Source of the DNA: Spirochaetales bacterium
GTDB taxonomy: Bacteria > Spirochaetota > Spirochaetia > JABEVK01
Assembly: GCA_037142615.1 (NCBI GenBank)
Contig: JBAXAI010000004.1
Coordinates: 96,001-160,000, forward strand
Direction of reading: 5' to 3'
DNA length: 64,000 nt
Below, in pieces: positions 23,687 through 37,629 of the stretch (its first letter is position 1; every line of letters starts with the position of its first letter). A program made the position numbers and the translations under genes. The notes under the pieces are model-generated. The model was given only the letters and a program-made list of their open reading frames with translations. It was not told the DNA's origin and did not search any database.

Positions 23687-23758
23687 GCCTTCTTAGCTCA
23701 GGGGTAGAGCATTTCCATGGTAAGGAAAAGGTCCGCGGTTCAAATCCGCGAGAAGGCT
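23687..23758 (+). tRNA. tRNA-Thr(GGT)
   Basis: Acceptor stem GCCTTCT/AGAAGGC, anticodon arm TTTCC-ATGGTAA-GGAAA, T loop TTCAAAT; discriminator T; CCA not encoded. Confidence 0.97.
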
Positions 23759-23975: not shown

Positions 23976-24048
23976 AGGTCAGTAGCTCCAATGGTAGAGC
24001 GGCGGTCTCCAAAACCGTTTGTTGGGGGTTCGAGTCCCTCCTGACCTG
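23976..24048 (+). tRNA. tRNA-Trp(CCA)
   Basis: Acceptor stem AGGTCAG/CTGACCT, anticodon loop CTCCAAA, GGTTCGAGTCC; canonical position before secE. Confidence 0.97.
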
Positions 24049-30784: not shown

Positions 30785-35059
<4,275 letters not shown>

Positions 35060-35585: not shown

Positions 35586-36056
35586 ATGCCCCGCAAGAGT
35601 TATGACGCCAACCGGCCTTTGCAGCCGGATCCGATCCACCACTCCGTGGTCGTTGCCAAGTTTATCCGCCGCATGATGTACGATGGTCAGTTGATGACCT
35701 CCTCGAATATCGTGATGCGCGCCTTCGCTCTTCTGGCCGAGAAGTCGGGCAAAGAACCGCTCGAAGTGTTTCTCAAGGCCCTCGACAACGTGAAACCCGT
35801 TGTCGAAGTCAAGTCGCGGCGCGTAGGCGGATCGACCTACCAGGTGCCTATCGAAATTCGAGAGTCCAGGCGCGAAGCTCTGGCTCACCGCTGGATCATC
35901 AATGCCTCACGCACCCGCAGTGGCAAGTCCATGAGCGAGAAGTTGGCTGCCGAGCTGTTTGATGCTTTCAGCAACACGGGGTCAGCCTTCAAGAAGAAGG
36001 AAGATACCCACCGCATGGCCGAGGCCAACAAGGCGTTCAGCCACTACAAGTGGTAG
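35586..36056 (+). CDS. rpsG: 30S ribosomal protein S7
   Basis: SRRVGGSTYQVP, MAEANKAF. Confidence 0.99.
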   Translation: MPRKSYDANRPLQPDPIHHSVVVAKFIRRMMYDGQLMTSSNIVMRAFALLAEKSGKEPLEVFLKALDNVKPVVEVKSRRVGGSTYQVPIEIRESRREALAHRWIINASRTRSGKSMSEKLAAELFDAFSNTGSAFKKKEDTHRMAEANKAFSHYKW

Positions 36057-36087
36057 TTGGATTTTGTCGAAATGAACGGTCGGCTTG

Positions 36088-36116
36088 TTGACAGGACCTT
36101 GGGGTTCTGCTAAGGT
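36088..36116 (+). promoter_or_regulatory. Sigma70 promoter for tuf/S10
   Basis: TTGACA-17bp-TAAGGT with extended -10 TG. Confidence 0.75.
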
Positions 36117-36122
36117 AGCCGA

Positions 36123-36430
36123 CAGTTCAATACCCCTTCGGGGCAAGTAATGCGGATTCGTCCGCGTTACCTCTGCCGGAAGGTAGCGTTCTTTTGGTAA
36201 GTTGCAGGAATCTTCGGGTTCCGTCGTCGCGGAAGCGGCGGTAGCAGTTCCAGTCAAACTACCAGGATCTCCTGGCAAGTGATGGTGTTGTGAACAACGG
36301 TTTTTTGACGGCCCGCCTGTCCGAAGCCACGCCTCTTGATGCTCTTTCCGGTGGAAAACTGCACTTCTGTACGAAGTGTTTCAAGTTGTAAACCATAAGG
36401 GTTACGTTGCTTATCCCCCGAGATAAGCCA
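36123..36430 (+). ncRNA. Putative structured leader/ncRNA upstream of tuf (unassigned family)
   Basis: About ten hairpins, three with UUCG loops and two with GGAA loops, many G-U pairs on the + strand. Confidence 0.6.
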
Positions 36431-36441
36431 AGGAGGAATTG

Positions 36442-37629
36442 ATGGCTAAGGAAAACTTCGTTCGATCGAAGCCCCACATCAATGTTGGAACCATCGGTCA
36501 CGTCGACCATGGCAAAACCACCCTGACCGCTGCTTTGACCATGTACGGTGCGAAGAAGCATGGCGGCAAGGTAATGAAGTATGAGGATATCGACAACGCT
36601 CCCGAAGAAAAAGAGCGCGGTATCACGATCAACACCCGGCACGTTGAGTACGAATCTTCGGCTCGGCACTATGCTCACGTTGACTGCCCCGGCCACGCCG
36701 ACTACGTCAAAAACATGATCACCGGCGCGGCTCAGATGGATGGTGCTATTCTGTTGGTGGCTGCTGACTCCGGACCTGAGCCCCAAACTCGCGAGCACAT
36801 CCTTCTGGCCAAGCAGGTCGGCGTCGCCAGCCTCGTGGTCTTCATGAACAAGATGGACTTGGCTGACCCGGAACTCGTTGAGCTCGTCGAAATGGAAGTC
36901 CGCGATCTGTTGAACCTTTATGGTTATGATGGAGAGAAGACTCCTTTTGTTAAGGGTTCGGCGTTCGCTGCCATGAGCAAGCCCGAAGATCCGGAGTCTG
37001 TGAAGTGCCTTGATGAACTTCTCGACACGATGGACAAGTACTTCCCGATTCCTGAGCGTGCTCTCGACAAGCCTTTCTTGATGCCCATTGAAGACGTGTT
37101 CTCGATCTCTGGTCGCGGTACCGTCGTGACCGGGGCCATTTCGCAGGGCAAGGTCAAGGTCGGCGACACGATTGAAATTGTTGGCCTGAAGCCCACGCAG
37201 ACCACGGTCTGTACTGGCGTCGAAATGTTCAATAAGAACTTGGACAATGGTCAGGCGGGCGACAACATTGGCGCACTGCTCCGAGGAATTGAAAAGAACC
37301 AGGTTGAACGTGGCCAGGTTCTCGCTGCTCCCAAGACCATTACTCCCCATACGAACTTCAAGGCGACGATCTACTGTCTGTCGAAAGAAGAAGGCGGACG
37401 TCACAATCCGTTCTTTACTGGCTATCGCCCTCAGTTCTACTTCCGGACGACGGACGTCACTGGCACTGTAACCCTGCCCGCCGGCAAGGAAATGGTCATG
37501 CCTGGCGACAACACCGAACTTTCGGTGGAACTGATTCACCCCATTGCCATGGACAAGGGCTTGCGCTTCGCTATCCGCGAAGGTGGCCGCACTGTCGCTT
37601 CTGGTCAGGTCATCGAAGTTATCAAGTAA
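36442..37629 (+). CDS. tuf: Elongation factor Tu
   Basis: [17 protein letters not shown]; AGGAGG SD. Confidence 0.99.

What the first reader, a model, noticed from the sequence alone, without database searches (positions are those of the whole stretch)
36073..36430. Large tetraloop-rich structured RNA between rpsG and tuf, where fusA usually lies
Seen: a 385-bp non-coding gap in an otherwise tightly packed operon, almost wholly foldable on the + strand. Hairpins: CCC-UUCG-GGG (36134-43); 10-bp GUAAUGCGGA-UUCG-UCCGCGUUAC (36147-70); CUGCC-GGAA-GGUAG (36173-86); GGAAUC-UUCG-GGUUCC (36207-22) abutting GUCGUCGC-GGAA-GCGGCGGU (36223-42), the pair closed by GUUGC/GCAGU and UUUUGGUA/UACCAGGA; more at 36345-57, 36361-79, 36388-405 and 36409-28 just before the SD. 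Mutually exclusive pairings exist: CCAGG (36262-66) pairs upstream or with CCUGG (36271-75), and GUCAAA (36253-58) can pair with the U-run/UUUGAC (36304-09) that follows a small hairpin. Knowledge: UUCG and GNRA loops with G-U pairs mark selected RNA structure. Inference: an undescribed cis-regulatory leader (r-protein-, EF-Tu- or ligand-responsive attenuator) or a stand-alone ncRNA controlling tuf-S10-spc-alpha. By eye it matches no family I know.
Basis: partly seen in the sequence, partly recalled or inferred. Interest (0 to 1): 0.78.

Follow-up and report, generated by a model that had tools for sequence, protein, structure and literature searches.

The report
Structured tuf-operon leader RNA in spirochaetes
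The gap between the S7 and EF-Tu genes holds a promoter and a roughly 320-base folded leader RNA, conserved in an uncultured spirochaete lineage, that matches no described RNA family and appears to be built partly from the remains of the lost EF-G gene.

Summary
Window 36057-36441 is a 385-nt non-coding gap between rpsG and tuf. It contains a sigma-70-type promoter (36088-36116), found in 12 of 12 genomes of the family, and a leader of about 320 nt.

The 5' domain shows strong covariation: 19 sequences, 96.3% of cells paired, 16 of 28 pairs with compensatory changes, 0 of 500 shuffles as good. Several 3' hairpins covary as well. Rfam 15 has no match, and five literature searches found no description.

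The full leader was found only in this family, which is also the whole order as held (12 species genomes), plus 13 metagenome contigs. One hairpin (36253-36283) is homologous to a hairpin upstream of tuf in many other Spirochaetia families. Both of its strands match codons of the EF-G gene that still precedes tuf in a minority of Spirochaetia. The leader therefore looks like a reused remnant of the fusA 3' end.

The function was not shown. My best reading is a protein-binding translational operator that hides the tuf Shine-Dalgarno sequence with CU-rich segments. An invariant GUUCUUU resembles the lineage's rrn BoxA, so S10-NusB is one candidate ligand. A conserved terminator (attenuator), rRNA mimicry by sequence and a stand-alone sRNA are not supported.

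The parts
35586..36056 (+). rpsG (ribosomal protein S7), the upstream gene
   Evidence: Pfam Ribosomal_S7, E = 2.9e-59.
36040..36054 (+). Small terminator-like hairpin at the end of rpsG
   Evidence: Consensus scan only. Relatives carry stronger hairpin plus U-run elements at this place, by eye.
36088..36116 (+). Promoter: TTGACA, 17-nt spacer, TAAGGT. The inferred start is near 36122-36124.
   Evidence: TTGACA-N17-TAnnnT is present in 12 of 12 family gaps and in 20 of the 21 pattern-scan loci (the last is cut at its contig end). RNA contigs from two studies begin at 36141 and 36144, which is a weak hint. The start site itself is inferred.
36134..36143 (+). P1, a 5'-terminal CCC-UUCG-GGG hairpin (genera 1 and 2 only). 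Its G-run overlaps the lower stem of helix A.
   Evidence: helix 1.
36143..36176 (+). Helix A. The lower stem pairs GCA (36143-45) with UGC (36174-76). An invariant asymmetric loop has one nucleotide on the 5' side and CUC (36171-73) on the 3' side. The upper stem-loop spans 36147-36170.
   Evidence: Covariation on A4: lower stem 2 of 3 pairs and upper stem 5 of 7 pairs with double changes.
36178..36197 (+). GGAAGGUAGCG followed by the invariant GUUCUUU(U)GG (36188-36197). This is BoxA-like and is also complementary to CCAAGGAG at the Shine-Dalgarno sequence.
   Evidence: Invariant in the alignments. It equals the first 8 nt of the sequence 38 nt upstream of the 23S rRNA in family member G006. 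The pairing with the Shine-Dalgarno region is inferred.
36201..36248 (+). Insertion specific to genus 1: two tetraloop hairpins (36207-22 and 36223-42) closed by GUUGC/GCAGU
   Evidence: Both hairpins form in 9 of 9 genus-1 sequences folded. The insertion is absent from genera 2-4.
36253..36283 (+). P4 hairpin (GUC-AA-ACU-A-CCAGG / CCUGG-C-A-AGU-GAU). It is homologous to a hairpin upstream of tuf across the class and to two fusA codon blocks.
   Evidence: (helices 5 and 6).
36284..36326 (+). Variable linker with lineage-specific hairpins. The U-run at 36301-36306 is not conserved.
36327..36359 (+). Conserved block CCAC-GCCUCU-...-GCUCUUUCC-GGUGG-AAAAC. It contains the anti-Shine-Dalgarno-like CCUCU (36332-36336).
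   Evidence: RNAalifold pairs CCUCY with GGAGG in 15 of 15 sequences, but with no double changes. Partition-function folds also use it in several homologues.
36361..36379 (+). P7 hairpin
   Evidence: 3 of its 7 pairs have double changes.
36391..36403 (+). P8 hairpin, AACC-AUAAG-GGUU
   Evidence: Kept in 14 of 15 sequences and invariant there. By eye, genus 4 has GGCC/GGCC at this place.
36409..36428 (+). P9 hairpin, immediately 5' of the Shine-Dalgarno sequence
   Evidence: 15 of 15 sequences keep it, with one covarying pair.
36429..36444 (+). CCAAGGAGGA Shine-Dalgarno region (GGAGG at 36432-36436) and the tuf ATG (36442)
   Evidence: Invariant in 17 of 18 full-length leaders; L043 reads CUAAGGAGGA.
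36442..37629 (+). tuf (EF-Tu), followed by rpsJ, rplC, rplD and rplB
   Evidence: Pfam.

Best explanation
The gap holds the promoter and a 5' untranslated leader of about 320 nt for the tuf-S10(-spc) operon. The leader is a selected, multi-helix RNA that acts in cis.

The most likely mechanism is a translational operator bound by a protein of the translation apparatus. Candidates are S10 with NusB, L4, another operon-encoded ribosomal protein, or EF-Tu. The conserved internal loops, namely the CUC loop of helix A and the bulged A residues of P4, would be the recognition sites. One of several invariant CU-rich segments (GUUCUUUGG, CCUCY, ACCUCU) would pair with the invariant CCAAGGAGG Shine-Dalgarno region to lower tuf translation when the ligand is in excess.

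In evolutionary terms, at least the P4 hairpin descends from the 3' coding part of the str-operon fusA gene, which Spirochaetia have mostly lost.

Shown here: the promoter motif, conservation, covariation, co-transcription with tuf at the level of assembled RNA contigs, and homology of P4 to the class-wide element and to fusA codons.

Inferred: the transcription start, sequestration of the Shine-Dalgarno sequence, the existence of a ligand and its identity.
For: - A promoter is present in 12 of 12 family gaps.
- A covariance model of the 5' domain matches all 19 leaders given to it, at 25.5-116.8 bits.
- Covariation on those 19: 96.3% of cells paired against 81.5% in shuffles and 44-50% when partners are slid; 16 of 28 pairs have double changes; 0 of 500 shuffles are as good.
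- In the 3' domain, P7 covaries and P8 and P9 are kept. CCUCY pairs with GGAGG in 15 of 15 sequences.
- The Shine-Dalgarno sequence is predicted to be mostly paired (mean unpaired probability 0.20 or less) in 9 of 18 homologues, always to CU-rich leader segments.
- There is one copy per genome, always at this locus.
- RNA contigs from 4 metatranscriptome runs, covering 2 studies, lie on the leader at 95-100% identity and bridge into tuf.
- There is no ORF in the gap.
- There is no Rfam match.
- A model of P4 trained without this family finds P4 at the exact coordinates in 4 family members. It also finds 17 of 28 class tuf loci.
- Class-wide covariation of P4: 95% of cells paired and 9 of 14 pairs with double changes.
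- Both P4 strands match fusA codon blocks. One other family (L081) keeps an EF-G relic at 27.7 bits, against a maximum of 23.9 in 40 shuffles.
Against: - No ligand was tested, and none can be tested with these tools.
- The proposed anti-Shine-Dalgarno pairings involve invariant bases, so covariation cannot confirm them. The predicted partner also differs between homologues.
- Both alignments used for the pair counts were fitted to the models, which biases the counts toward the structure.
- The sequences are related to each other: about 5 lineages within the family.
- At the protein level, similarity of this family's own leaders to EF-G is not above shuffled controls (19.2 bits or less, against 23.9). 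Descent from fusA therefore rests on the chain genus 1 - genera 2 to 4 - class element - fusA.
- Sequence similarity to 23S rRNA is at chance level.
- RNA contigs cannot prove a single transcript or a start site, and DNA carry-over was not excluded.
Confidence: 0.5

Rival explanations
1. The leader is specifically a Nus-factor element. GUUCUUU(G)G would be a BoxA bound by NusB-S10. It would either make RNA polymerase resistant to Rho across the long untranslated leader and the long operon, or feed back on S10 (NusE) synthesis as described for suhB in E. coli.
For: - GUUCUUU is invariant in all 19 leaders, across four genera.
- In family member G006, the 38 nt upstream of the 23S rRNA begin with GUUCUUUGACAGC. 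A G009 contig has GUUCUUUGAAAGC about 150 nt upstream of a 16S gene.
- rpsJ (S10 = NusE) is the second gene of the operon.
- The element follows a hairpin about 65 nt after the inferred start. From memory, this resembles the boxB-boxA order of rrn leaders.
- Putative boxA sequences upstream of rpsJ, or of operons that contain it, were reported for some gamma-proteobacteria (PMC5725501, sections 13 and 15 read).
- G[UC]UCUUU occurs in 6 of 29 class loci (the sequence upstream of tuf, up to 600 nt), against 2.3 expected from mononucleotide shuffles.
Against: - Positions 9-11 do not match either the lineage's rrn BoxA (GA[AC]A) or the published consensus GYTCTTTAANA; the leaders read GG[CU]G, UGGU, GGAU and so on.
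- The 8-mer GTTCTTTG occurs 232 times in the 4.27-Mb genome, so its presence alone means little.
- The element lies about 245 nt from the start codon, not within the 50 nt used in PMC5725501.
- It is predicted to be partly paired.
- The resemblance was noticed after the fact.
- The supplementary data of PMC5725501 were not available to me.
Confidence: 0.2
2. The leader has no sensor function. It would be a fusA remnant kept as a stable, highly structured 5' UTR that protects the abundant tuf mRNA from 5'-end-dependent decay and from Rho, or that provides a processing site. The helices are under selection, but no ligand exists.
For: - There is a 5'-terminal UUCG hairpin.
- Peripheral hairpins vary freely and often end in stable tetraloops.
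- P4 matches fusA codons.
- In E. coli, tufA has extra promoters inside fus (review PMC10931766, passages read), so cis elements for tuf inside fusA have a precedent.
- No conserved terminator switch was found.
Against: Unpaired positions are invariant over four genera: the CUC loop, the AA bulge and A bulge of P4, GUUCUUU, GAAAAC, and CCAA before the Shine-Dalgarno sequence. Stability alone does not require this. P4 is kept in sequence and shape across many families of a class.
Confidence: 0.2
3. The leader is a riboswitch for a small molecule linked to translation, such as a guanine nucleotide or an alarmone.
For: It is large, has several helices, and has conserved junction and loop nucleotides. 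It lies upstream of a GTPase gene.
Against: It matches none of the 4227 Rfam 15 models, even at E up to 10. No conserved expression platform with a terminator was found. The core is narrowly distributed, in one family only, whereas riboswitch classes are usually broad. There is no gene-context variety: the leader always precedes tuf.
Confidence: 0.07
4. The region is a stand-alone small RNA gene lying between rpsG and tuf.
For: It has its own promoter. In G000 and one relative there is a U-run at 36301-36306 after a weak hairpin.
Against: The U-run is not conserved. RNA contigs bridge from the leader into tuf (X2 36319-37108, X3 36031-36488 and 36459-37451, X7 36141-36635). The conserved structure runs right up to the Shine-Dalgarno sequence.
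Confidence: 0.03

Closest known systems
E. coli S10-operon leader (L4-responsive attenuator and translational operator)
   Same: Both are structured 5' leaders at the head of the operon that carries rpsJ-rplC-rplD. Both are presumed to give protein feedback on a large ribosomal-protein operon.
   Different: There is no sequence or model match, since no Rfam 15 family hits. Here tuf is the first gene. No conserved intrinsic terminator hairpin was found. The leader is about twice as long. According to PMC3616713 (title and abstract read), such E. coli leaders are mostly confined to Gammaproteobacteria. Binding of L4 was not tested.
BoxA / Nus-factor autoregulation of suhB, and putatively of rpsJ (Baniulyte et al. 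2017, PMC5725501)
   Same: There is a GYUCUUU core in a 5' UTR of an operon that encodes a Nus factor (S10 = NusE). The core is identical to the start of the lineage's rrn BoxA.
   Different: The 3' half of the motif does not match. The element lies about 245 nt from the start codon, not within 50 nt. It is embedded in a large structure. That paper surveyed gamma-proteobacteria only.
Secondary tufA promoters inside E. coli fus (as summarised in review PMC10931766)
   Same: In both cases, cis elements for tuf expression reside in the 3' part of fusA. Here the promoter and leader occupy the place of fusA, and P4 matches fusA codons.
   Different: In E. coli, fusA is intact and no structured element has been described there (this last point is from memory). 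Here the gene is gone and an RNA structure is conserved.
Loss of the str-operon EF-G (EFG I) in Spirochaetes and its replacement by spdEFG1/2 (Margus et al. 2011, PMC3150367, passages read)
   Same: This explains why fusA is missing between rpsG and tuf. The window's genome has three EF-G paralogues elsewhere.
   Different: In the passages I read, that paper does not describe what remains in the gap. Here the gap is shown to be a conserved RNA. At least four of the sampled Spirochaetia still have an EF-G gene next to tuf.
Candidate ribosomal leaders of Eckert and Weinberg 2020 (PMC7247131), including the Firmicutes S10 leader they cite
   Same: They belong to the same general class: candidate protein-binding leaders found by comparative analysis upstream of ribosomal-protein operons.
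   Different: A term search of that paper found no mention of tuf, rpsJ or spirochaetes. Its supplementary files were not viewed.

Membership tests
Any Rfam 15 family (riboswitches, ribosomal-protein leaders, sRNAs) | A covariance-model match at or near the gathering score | tested here: not met
   The whole window at gathering threshold gives only two tRNAs, located elsewhere. At E up to 10, region 35950-36550 gives only SNORD65 at 12.5 bits, E = 7.2, which is noise. Twenty other Spirochaetia tuf loci give no hit.
Intrinsic-terminator attenuator (as in the E. coli S10 leader) | A conserved GC-rich hairpin followed by a U-run inside the leader, with an alternative anti-terminator pairing | tested here: not met
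   The scan lists 36164-36189 and 36173-36186 as terminator-like. The extended stem is specific to G000. The U-run at 36301-36306 is present only in G000 and G002. No hairpin plus U-run is shared by the four genera.
BoxA (NusB-S10 binding site) | Core GYUCUUU | tested here: met
   GUUCUUU is invariant in the aligned leaders.
BoxA (NusB-S10 binding site) | 3' half of the motif: AANA in the published consensus GYTCTTTAANA, or GA[AC]A in the rrn BoxA of this family | tested here: not met
   The leaders read GG[CU]G, UGGU, GGAU, UGUU or AGAG at these positions. The consensus comes from PMC5725501, section 13.
BoxA (NusB-S10 binding site) | Binding of NusB-S10 and an effect on Rho termination or translation | not testable with these tools
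   This needs a binding assay or genetics.
rRNA-mimic ribosomal-protein leader | Resemblance of the conserved leader core to the protein's rRNA site | tested here: inconclusive
   An 11-mer and several 7-9-mers are shared with 23S domain IV. However, colinear chains of this kind are reached by 175 of 300 and 177 of 300 dinucleotide shuffles. Structural mimicry was not tested. The window's own genome has no assembled rRNA.
Spirochaetia tuf-leader hairpin (the family defined here by model R3) | CCAAAC[CU]-stem-[UA]A[AG]GUG[GA] with an AA bulge and a 3' A bulge, lying upstream of tuf | tested here: met
   R3 was built from 12 non-family sequences. It finds L021, L022, L020 and L017 at the P4 coordinates, at 26.3, 23.8, 17.9 and 15.0 bits. 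The window's own copy (CAAACU...AAGUGA) is too diverged for R3 with default filters. It is linked through models R1 and R2.

The most novel reading that the evidence does not exclude
An RNA control element for EF-Tu synthesis first existed inside the coding sequence of fusA, as a long-range helix between the AKP(I/T)(I/V) and G(G/S)KVV codons. These codons still pair, with compensatory changes, in Spirochaetia that keep fusA next to tuf. The element survived the loss of that gene as a compact hairpin. In this family it was then built up into a 320-nt sensor that couples EF-Tu and S10-operon output to a translation-apparatus protein, S10-NusB or EF-Tu itself. This would be a documented case of a coding remnant reused as a regulatory RNA and conserved across a bacterial class.
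Probability: 0.25. Interest if true: 0.8.

Novelty: new member of a known kind. Interest (0 to 1): 0.6.

Why it matters
EF-Tu is among the most abundant bacterial proteins. In this lineage its gene heads the main ribosomal-protein gene cluster, so this leader sits at a control point for a large share of the cell's protein-synthesis budget. How ribosomal-protein operons are regulated outside Gammaproteobacteria and Firmicutes is mostly unknown.

This work gives a well-supported new RNA family: two covariance models with strong covariation. It also gives a smaller hairpin conserved upstream of tuf in many Spirochaetia families, some of them represented by single-contig genomes, where it might be tested if the organisms are in culture. 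If the link to fusA codons holds, it shows how a regulatory RNA can arise from, or outlive, a lost gene.

Tried and rejected
- **Rfam.** Searches at gathering and E-value thresholds found nothing relevant.
- **Attenuator model.** The terminator-like sites and the U-run at 36301-36306 are not conserved.
- **My own first idea**, that UUUG pairs with CAAA to close the insertion. I dropped it because four leaders read CAUAC with no compensating change, while the extended P4 pairing covaries.
- **rRNA mimicry by sequence.** Short shared words with 23S rRNA are at chance level. The window's genome has no assembled rRNA, so rRNA from G006 and G009 was used.
- **Weak R2 hits outside the family** (8 places in 7 genomes, 16.5-21.5 bits). 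None lies near tuf or rpsG, so I treat them as chance. With filters off on 28 class tuf loci, R2 gave only hits of 10.9 bits or less.
- **R3 hits in other classes of the phylum** (4 genomes). None is near tuf, so I treat them as chance.
- **EF-G relic at the protein level.**
  - An HMM built from six EF-G C-termini gave only E of 2 or more on translated gaps.
  - tblastn on the last 330 nt of each gap did not exceed shuffles.
  - On full gaps, only L081 exceeded them. The relic claim for this family is therefore indirect.
- **Genome-wide count of the BoxA-like 8-mer.** 232 copies, so its presence is uninformative.
- **RNA contigs.** Parts of the stretch without cover in runs X7 and X17 are not evidence of absence. 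No DNA run was laid beside them, so DNA carry-over and the meaning of contig ends at 36141 and 36144 stay open.
- **Structure prediction, complex prediction and the protein atlas** were not used, because the object is an RNA.
- **Supplementary files** of PMC5725501 and PMC7247131 were not seen and may list further BoxA sites or leader candidates.
Full report
**What is at the site.** Window 36057-36441 lies between rpsG (35586-36056, Pfam Ribosomal_S7) and tuf (ATG at 36442, GTP_EFTU). Downstream come rpsJ, rplC, rplD and rplB, with rpsL upstream. The 385-nt gap has no credible ORF. The + strand folds better than shuffled copies (-149 kcal/mol, z = -3.83, 0 of 100 shuffles). So does the - strand (z = -4.11), so folding energy does not tell the strands apart. 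Comparative evidence does.

**Organism and relatives.** The window is contig C4 of a 4.27-Mb, 76-contig genome. Records that carry the same core motif are titled as uncultured Spirochaetales, Spirochaetaceae or Spirochaetes metagenome-assembled genomes (8 loci). Its family holds 12 species genomes in 4 genera, and the order as held consists of the same 12.
- All 12 have rpsG on the same strand as the gap. Eleven show tuf after 271-862 nt. The twelfth contig ends inside the gap.
- All 12 gaps contain TTGACA-N17-TAnnnT. In the window this is 36088-36093 and 36111-36116.
- Several relatives have a hairpin plus U-run between rpsG and this promoter, by eye.
- The RNA is therefore a leader of about 320 nt transcribed from its own promoter. 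The start near 36122-36124 is inferred.

**Structure and covariation of the 5' domain.** I built model R1 from six seed sequences with a hand-written structure. It matched all 19 leaders given to it at 25.5-116.8 bits: 12 from the family genomes and 7 distinct metagenome contigs. On the resulting alignment:
- 96.3% of cells form standard pairs, against 81.5% in column shuffles and 44-50% when partners are slid by 1-3 columns.
- 16 of 28 pairs have changes on both sides.
- 0 of 500 shuffles reach any of the five measures.

Two caveats apply. The alignment was fitted to the model, and the sequences are related.

The supported elements are:
- P1 (36134-36143; genera 1 and 2 only).
- Helix A. Its lower stem pairs 36143-45 with 36174-76. 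It has an invariant asymmetric loop with CUC at 36171-73. Its upper stem-loop spans 36147-70 and varies in length and sequence.
- P4 (36253-36283), with a two-nucleotide 5' bulge and a one-nucleotide 3' bulge.

The stretch between helix A and P4, GGAAGGUAGCG-GUUCUUU(U)GG, is almost invariant, so covariation says nothing about it. Genus 1 has an insertion of two hairpins (36207-22 and 36223-42). Both form in 9 of 9 sequences folded, with different sequences; a tenth sequence was lost to a script error.

**The 3' domain.** RNAalifold on 15 sequences from genera 1 and 2 gives:
- P7 (36361-79), where 3 of 7 pairs have double changes.
- P8 (36391-403) and P9 (36409-28), which are kept but hardly vary.
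- A long-range pairing of CCUCY (36332-36) with the Shine-Dalgarno GGAGG (36432-36), kept in 15 of 15 sequences but only through C/U changes opposite G.

Partition-function folds of 18 leaders predict the Shine-Dalgarno sequence to be mostly paired (mean unpaired probability 0.20 or less) in 9 of them. The partner is always a CU-rich leader segment, but not the same one in each. By inspection, GUUCUUUGG is also complementary to the invariant CCAAGGAG. These pairings are plausible and unproven.

**Distribution.**
- Model R2, built from the 19 sequences, was run over 151 genomes sampled from the class. It found the leader in G000 and all 6 other family genomes in the sample (7 of 7), at 52.6-126.9 bits. 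Elsewhere it gave 8 hits of 16.5-21.5 bits in 7 genomes, none near tuf or rpsG.
- There is one copy per genome.
- An exact-pattern scan found 13 metagenome contigs, which added 7 distinct sequences.
- The complete leader is therefore confined to this family as far as I searched.

**A class-wide piece, and where it came from.**
- I fetched 29 tuf loci from families across the class. One (L069) belongs to the window's own family. Of the other 28, 22 have rpsG within 1.5 kb upstream, with gaps of 74-1091 nt.
- Most of these gaps carry a motif of the form GCCAAACC-stem-loop-[UA]AGGUGGU. This has the same architecture as P4.
- Model R3 was built from 12 such sequences, none from the window's family. 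It found P4 at the exact coordinates in four family members, at 26.3, 23.8, 17.9 and 15.0 bits. With filters off it found 17 of the 28 class loci.
- In a 151-genome sample of the phylum, R3 gave 5 hits in the same class, all immediately upstream of tuf. Its 4 hits in other classes were not.
- Over 24 distinct sequences, 95.0% of cells pair, against 82.1% in shuffles. 9 of 14 pairs have double changes, and 0 of 500 shuffles are as good.
- In 3 of the 28 loci the gene upstream of tuf is an EF-G gene. A further search found about ten such genes among 201 genomes. I confirmed that they lie next to tuf for four of them.
- The two strands of the hairpin match two blocks of these genes about 120 nt apart: the codons for AKP(I/T)(I/V) and for G(G/S)KVV. 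blastn gives repeated colinear hits to 10 different gaps, each at E = 0.006-0.84.
- In the 6 EF-G genes examined, the two blocks can pair with each other. Four pair at 6 of 6 positions and two at 5 of 6. There are C-G to U-A changes that coincide with Ile-to-Thr and Gly-to-Ser replacements.
- One family (L081) keeps a longer EF-G relic in the gap: 27.7 bits, against at most 23.9 in 40 shuffled sets.
- For the window's own family, protein-level similarity to EF-G is not above background. Its descent from fusA is therefore inferred through the chain of RNA homology.
- Published work states that Spirochaetes lack the str-operon EF-G and use two other paralogues (PMC3150367, passages read). The window's genome has three EF-G paralogues on other contigs.
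- A review notes that E. coli tufA has additional promoters inside fus (PMC10931766, passages read).

**Expression.** Of the 24 public runs listed, 20 hold the stretch or part of it, and seven of those are recorded as RNA. I laid four metatranscriptome runs, from two studies.
- Their assembled contigs lie on the leader at 95-100% identity and bridge into tuf: X3 36031-36488 and 36459-37451, X2 36176-36348 and 36319-37108, X7 36141-36635.
- X2 also bridges from rpsG into the leader (35785-36205).
- Contigs from two different studies begin at 36141 (X7) and 36144 (X17) with no loose end on that side. By the tool's own standard this is only a weak hint of a 5' end. No DNA run was laid for comparison.
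- Contigs cannot show strand, ends or level of an RNA.

**Mechanism.** No conserved hairpin plus U-run exists inside the leader, so a classical attenuator is unlikely. The pattern is that of protein-binding leaders of ribosomal-protein operons: invariant unpaired nucleotides held in covarying helices, and several CU-rich blocks complementary to an invariant, extended Shine-Dalgarno region. I take such a leader as the best explanation (confidence about 0.5).

One specific candidate is S10-NusB. GUUCUUU is invariant and equals the start of the sequence found 38 nt upstream of the 23S rRNA in family member G006 (GUUCUUUGACAGC). S10 is encoded second in the operon, and boxA-type autoregulation of Nus-factor genes is documented or proposed in gamma-proteobacteria (PMC5725501, abstract and sections 13 and 15 read). 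Against this candidate:
- The 3' half of the motif does not match.
- The site is about 245 nt from the start codon.
- The 8-mer occurs 232 times in the genome.

I put this reading at 0.2. A purely structural role, stabilising or processing the mRNA, also gets 0.2. A riboswitch gets 0.07 and a separate sRNA 0.03.

**Comparison with what is known, and novelty.** Rfam 15 holds nothing like it. Five full-text searches and term look-ups in five papers found no description of a structured RNA upstream of tuf in spirochaetes. The closest known systems are the E. coli L4-S10 leader, BoxA-mediated Nus autoregulation and the fus-internal tufA promoters. The leader resembles each in role or position but meets the defining features of none. 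I file it as a new member of a known kind: a cis-acting leader of a translation-apparatus operon. It has an unusual likely origin in a lost coding sequence.

**Limits.**
- All structural statistics come from about five lineages and from model-fitted alignments.
- The transcription start, the ligand and the regulatory outcome are inferred.
- The fusA-origin claim for this family is indirect.
- The pairing inside intact fusA genes rests on six sequences, and protein-level coevolution could explain it.

Noticed in passing
L079, L082, L086; L108-L117: A minority of Spirochaetia, about 10 of 201 sampled, have an EF-G gene of a distinct type (46-55% identical to each other over the C-terminus). I confirmed that four of them lie next to tuf. 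Published work says the phylum lacks the str-operon EF-G. In 6 genes examined, their AKP(I/T)(I/V) and G(G/S)KVV codon blocks are complementary to each other.
   Followed up: partly
G000 contigs C1, C18, C25: The window's genome carries three EF-G paralogues away from the str region, and none between rpsG and tuf.
   Followed up: partly
G009 contigs: This family member has some 30 fragmentary 23S matches and 9 fragmentary 16S matches on many small contigs. One 16S leader carries an E. coli-type boxA (GCUCUUUAACAA). This suggests mixed strains or contamination in that bin.
   Followed up: no
L070-L097, up to 600 nt upstream of tuf: Long rpsG-tuf spacers are the rule across the class (74-1091 nt; most are 230-600 nt). 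Many have a TTGAC[AT]-N16-18-TAnnnT site 200-370 nt before tuf. A second conserved block, GACCUCUGGAUCCUUCC, recurs in several families and resembles the GCCUCU...CUCUUCC block at window 36331-36349.
   Followed up: partly
L016 (G003) gap: This relative's rpsG-tuf gap is 862 nt and contains a run of about 100 N. The run is either a scaffold gap or withheld bases. The extra sequence upstream of the promoter is GC-rich and repetitive (GAAGCGAAG motifs).
   Followed up: no
window 36439-36444: The ORF list starts tuf at TTG 36439. The ATG at 36442 aligns with the ATGGC start in all relatives and sits 5 nt after the GGAGG, so it is the likely start.
   Followed up: yes
window 32384-34951 (-) and 36259-37539 (-): Long open frames lie antisense to rpoC and tuf (855 and 426 aa). 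I take them to be by-products of the coding strand's composition, not genes.
   Followed up: no
window 23687-23758 and 23976-24048: Two tRNA genes on the + strand. These are the only Rfam matches in the window.
   Followed up: no
one search run table: Apart from the possible source sample, 11 runs from six studies hold half or more of the sampled words of this stretch. All are labelled freshwater or lake-water metagenomes. Only four RNA runs were laid.
   Followed up: partly
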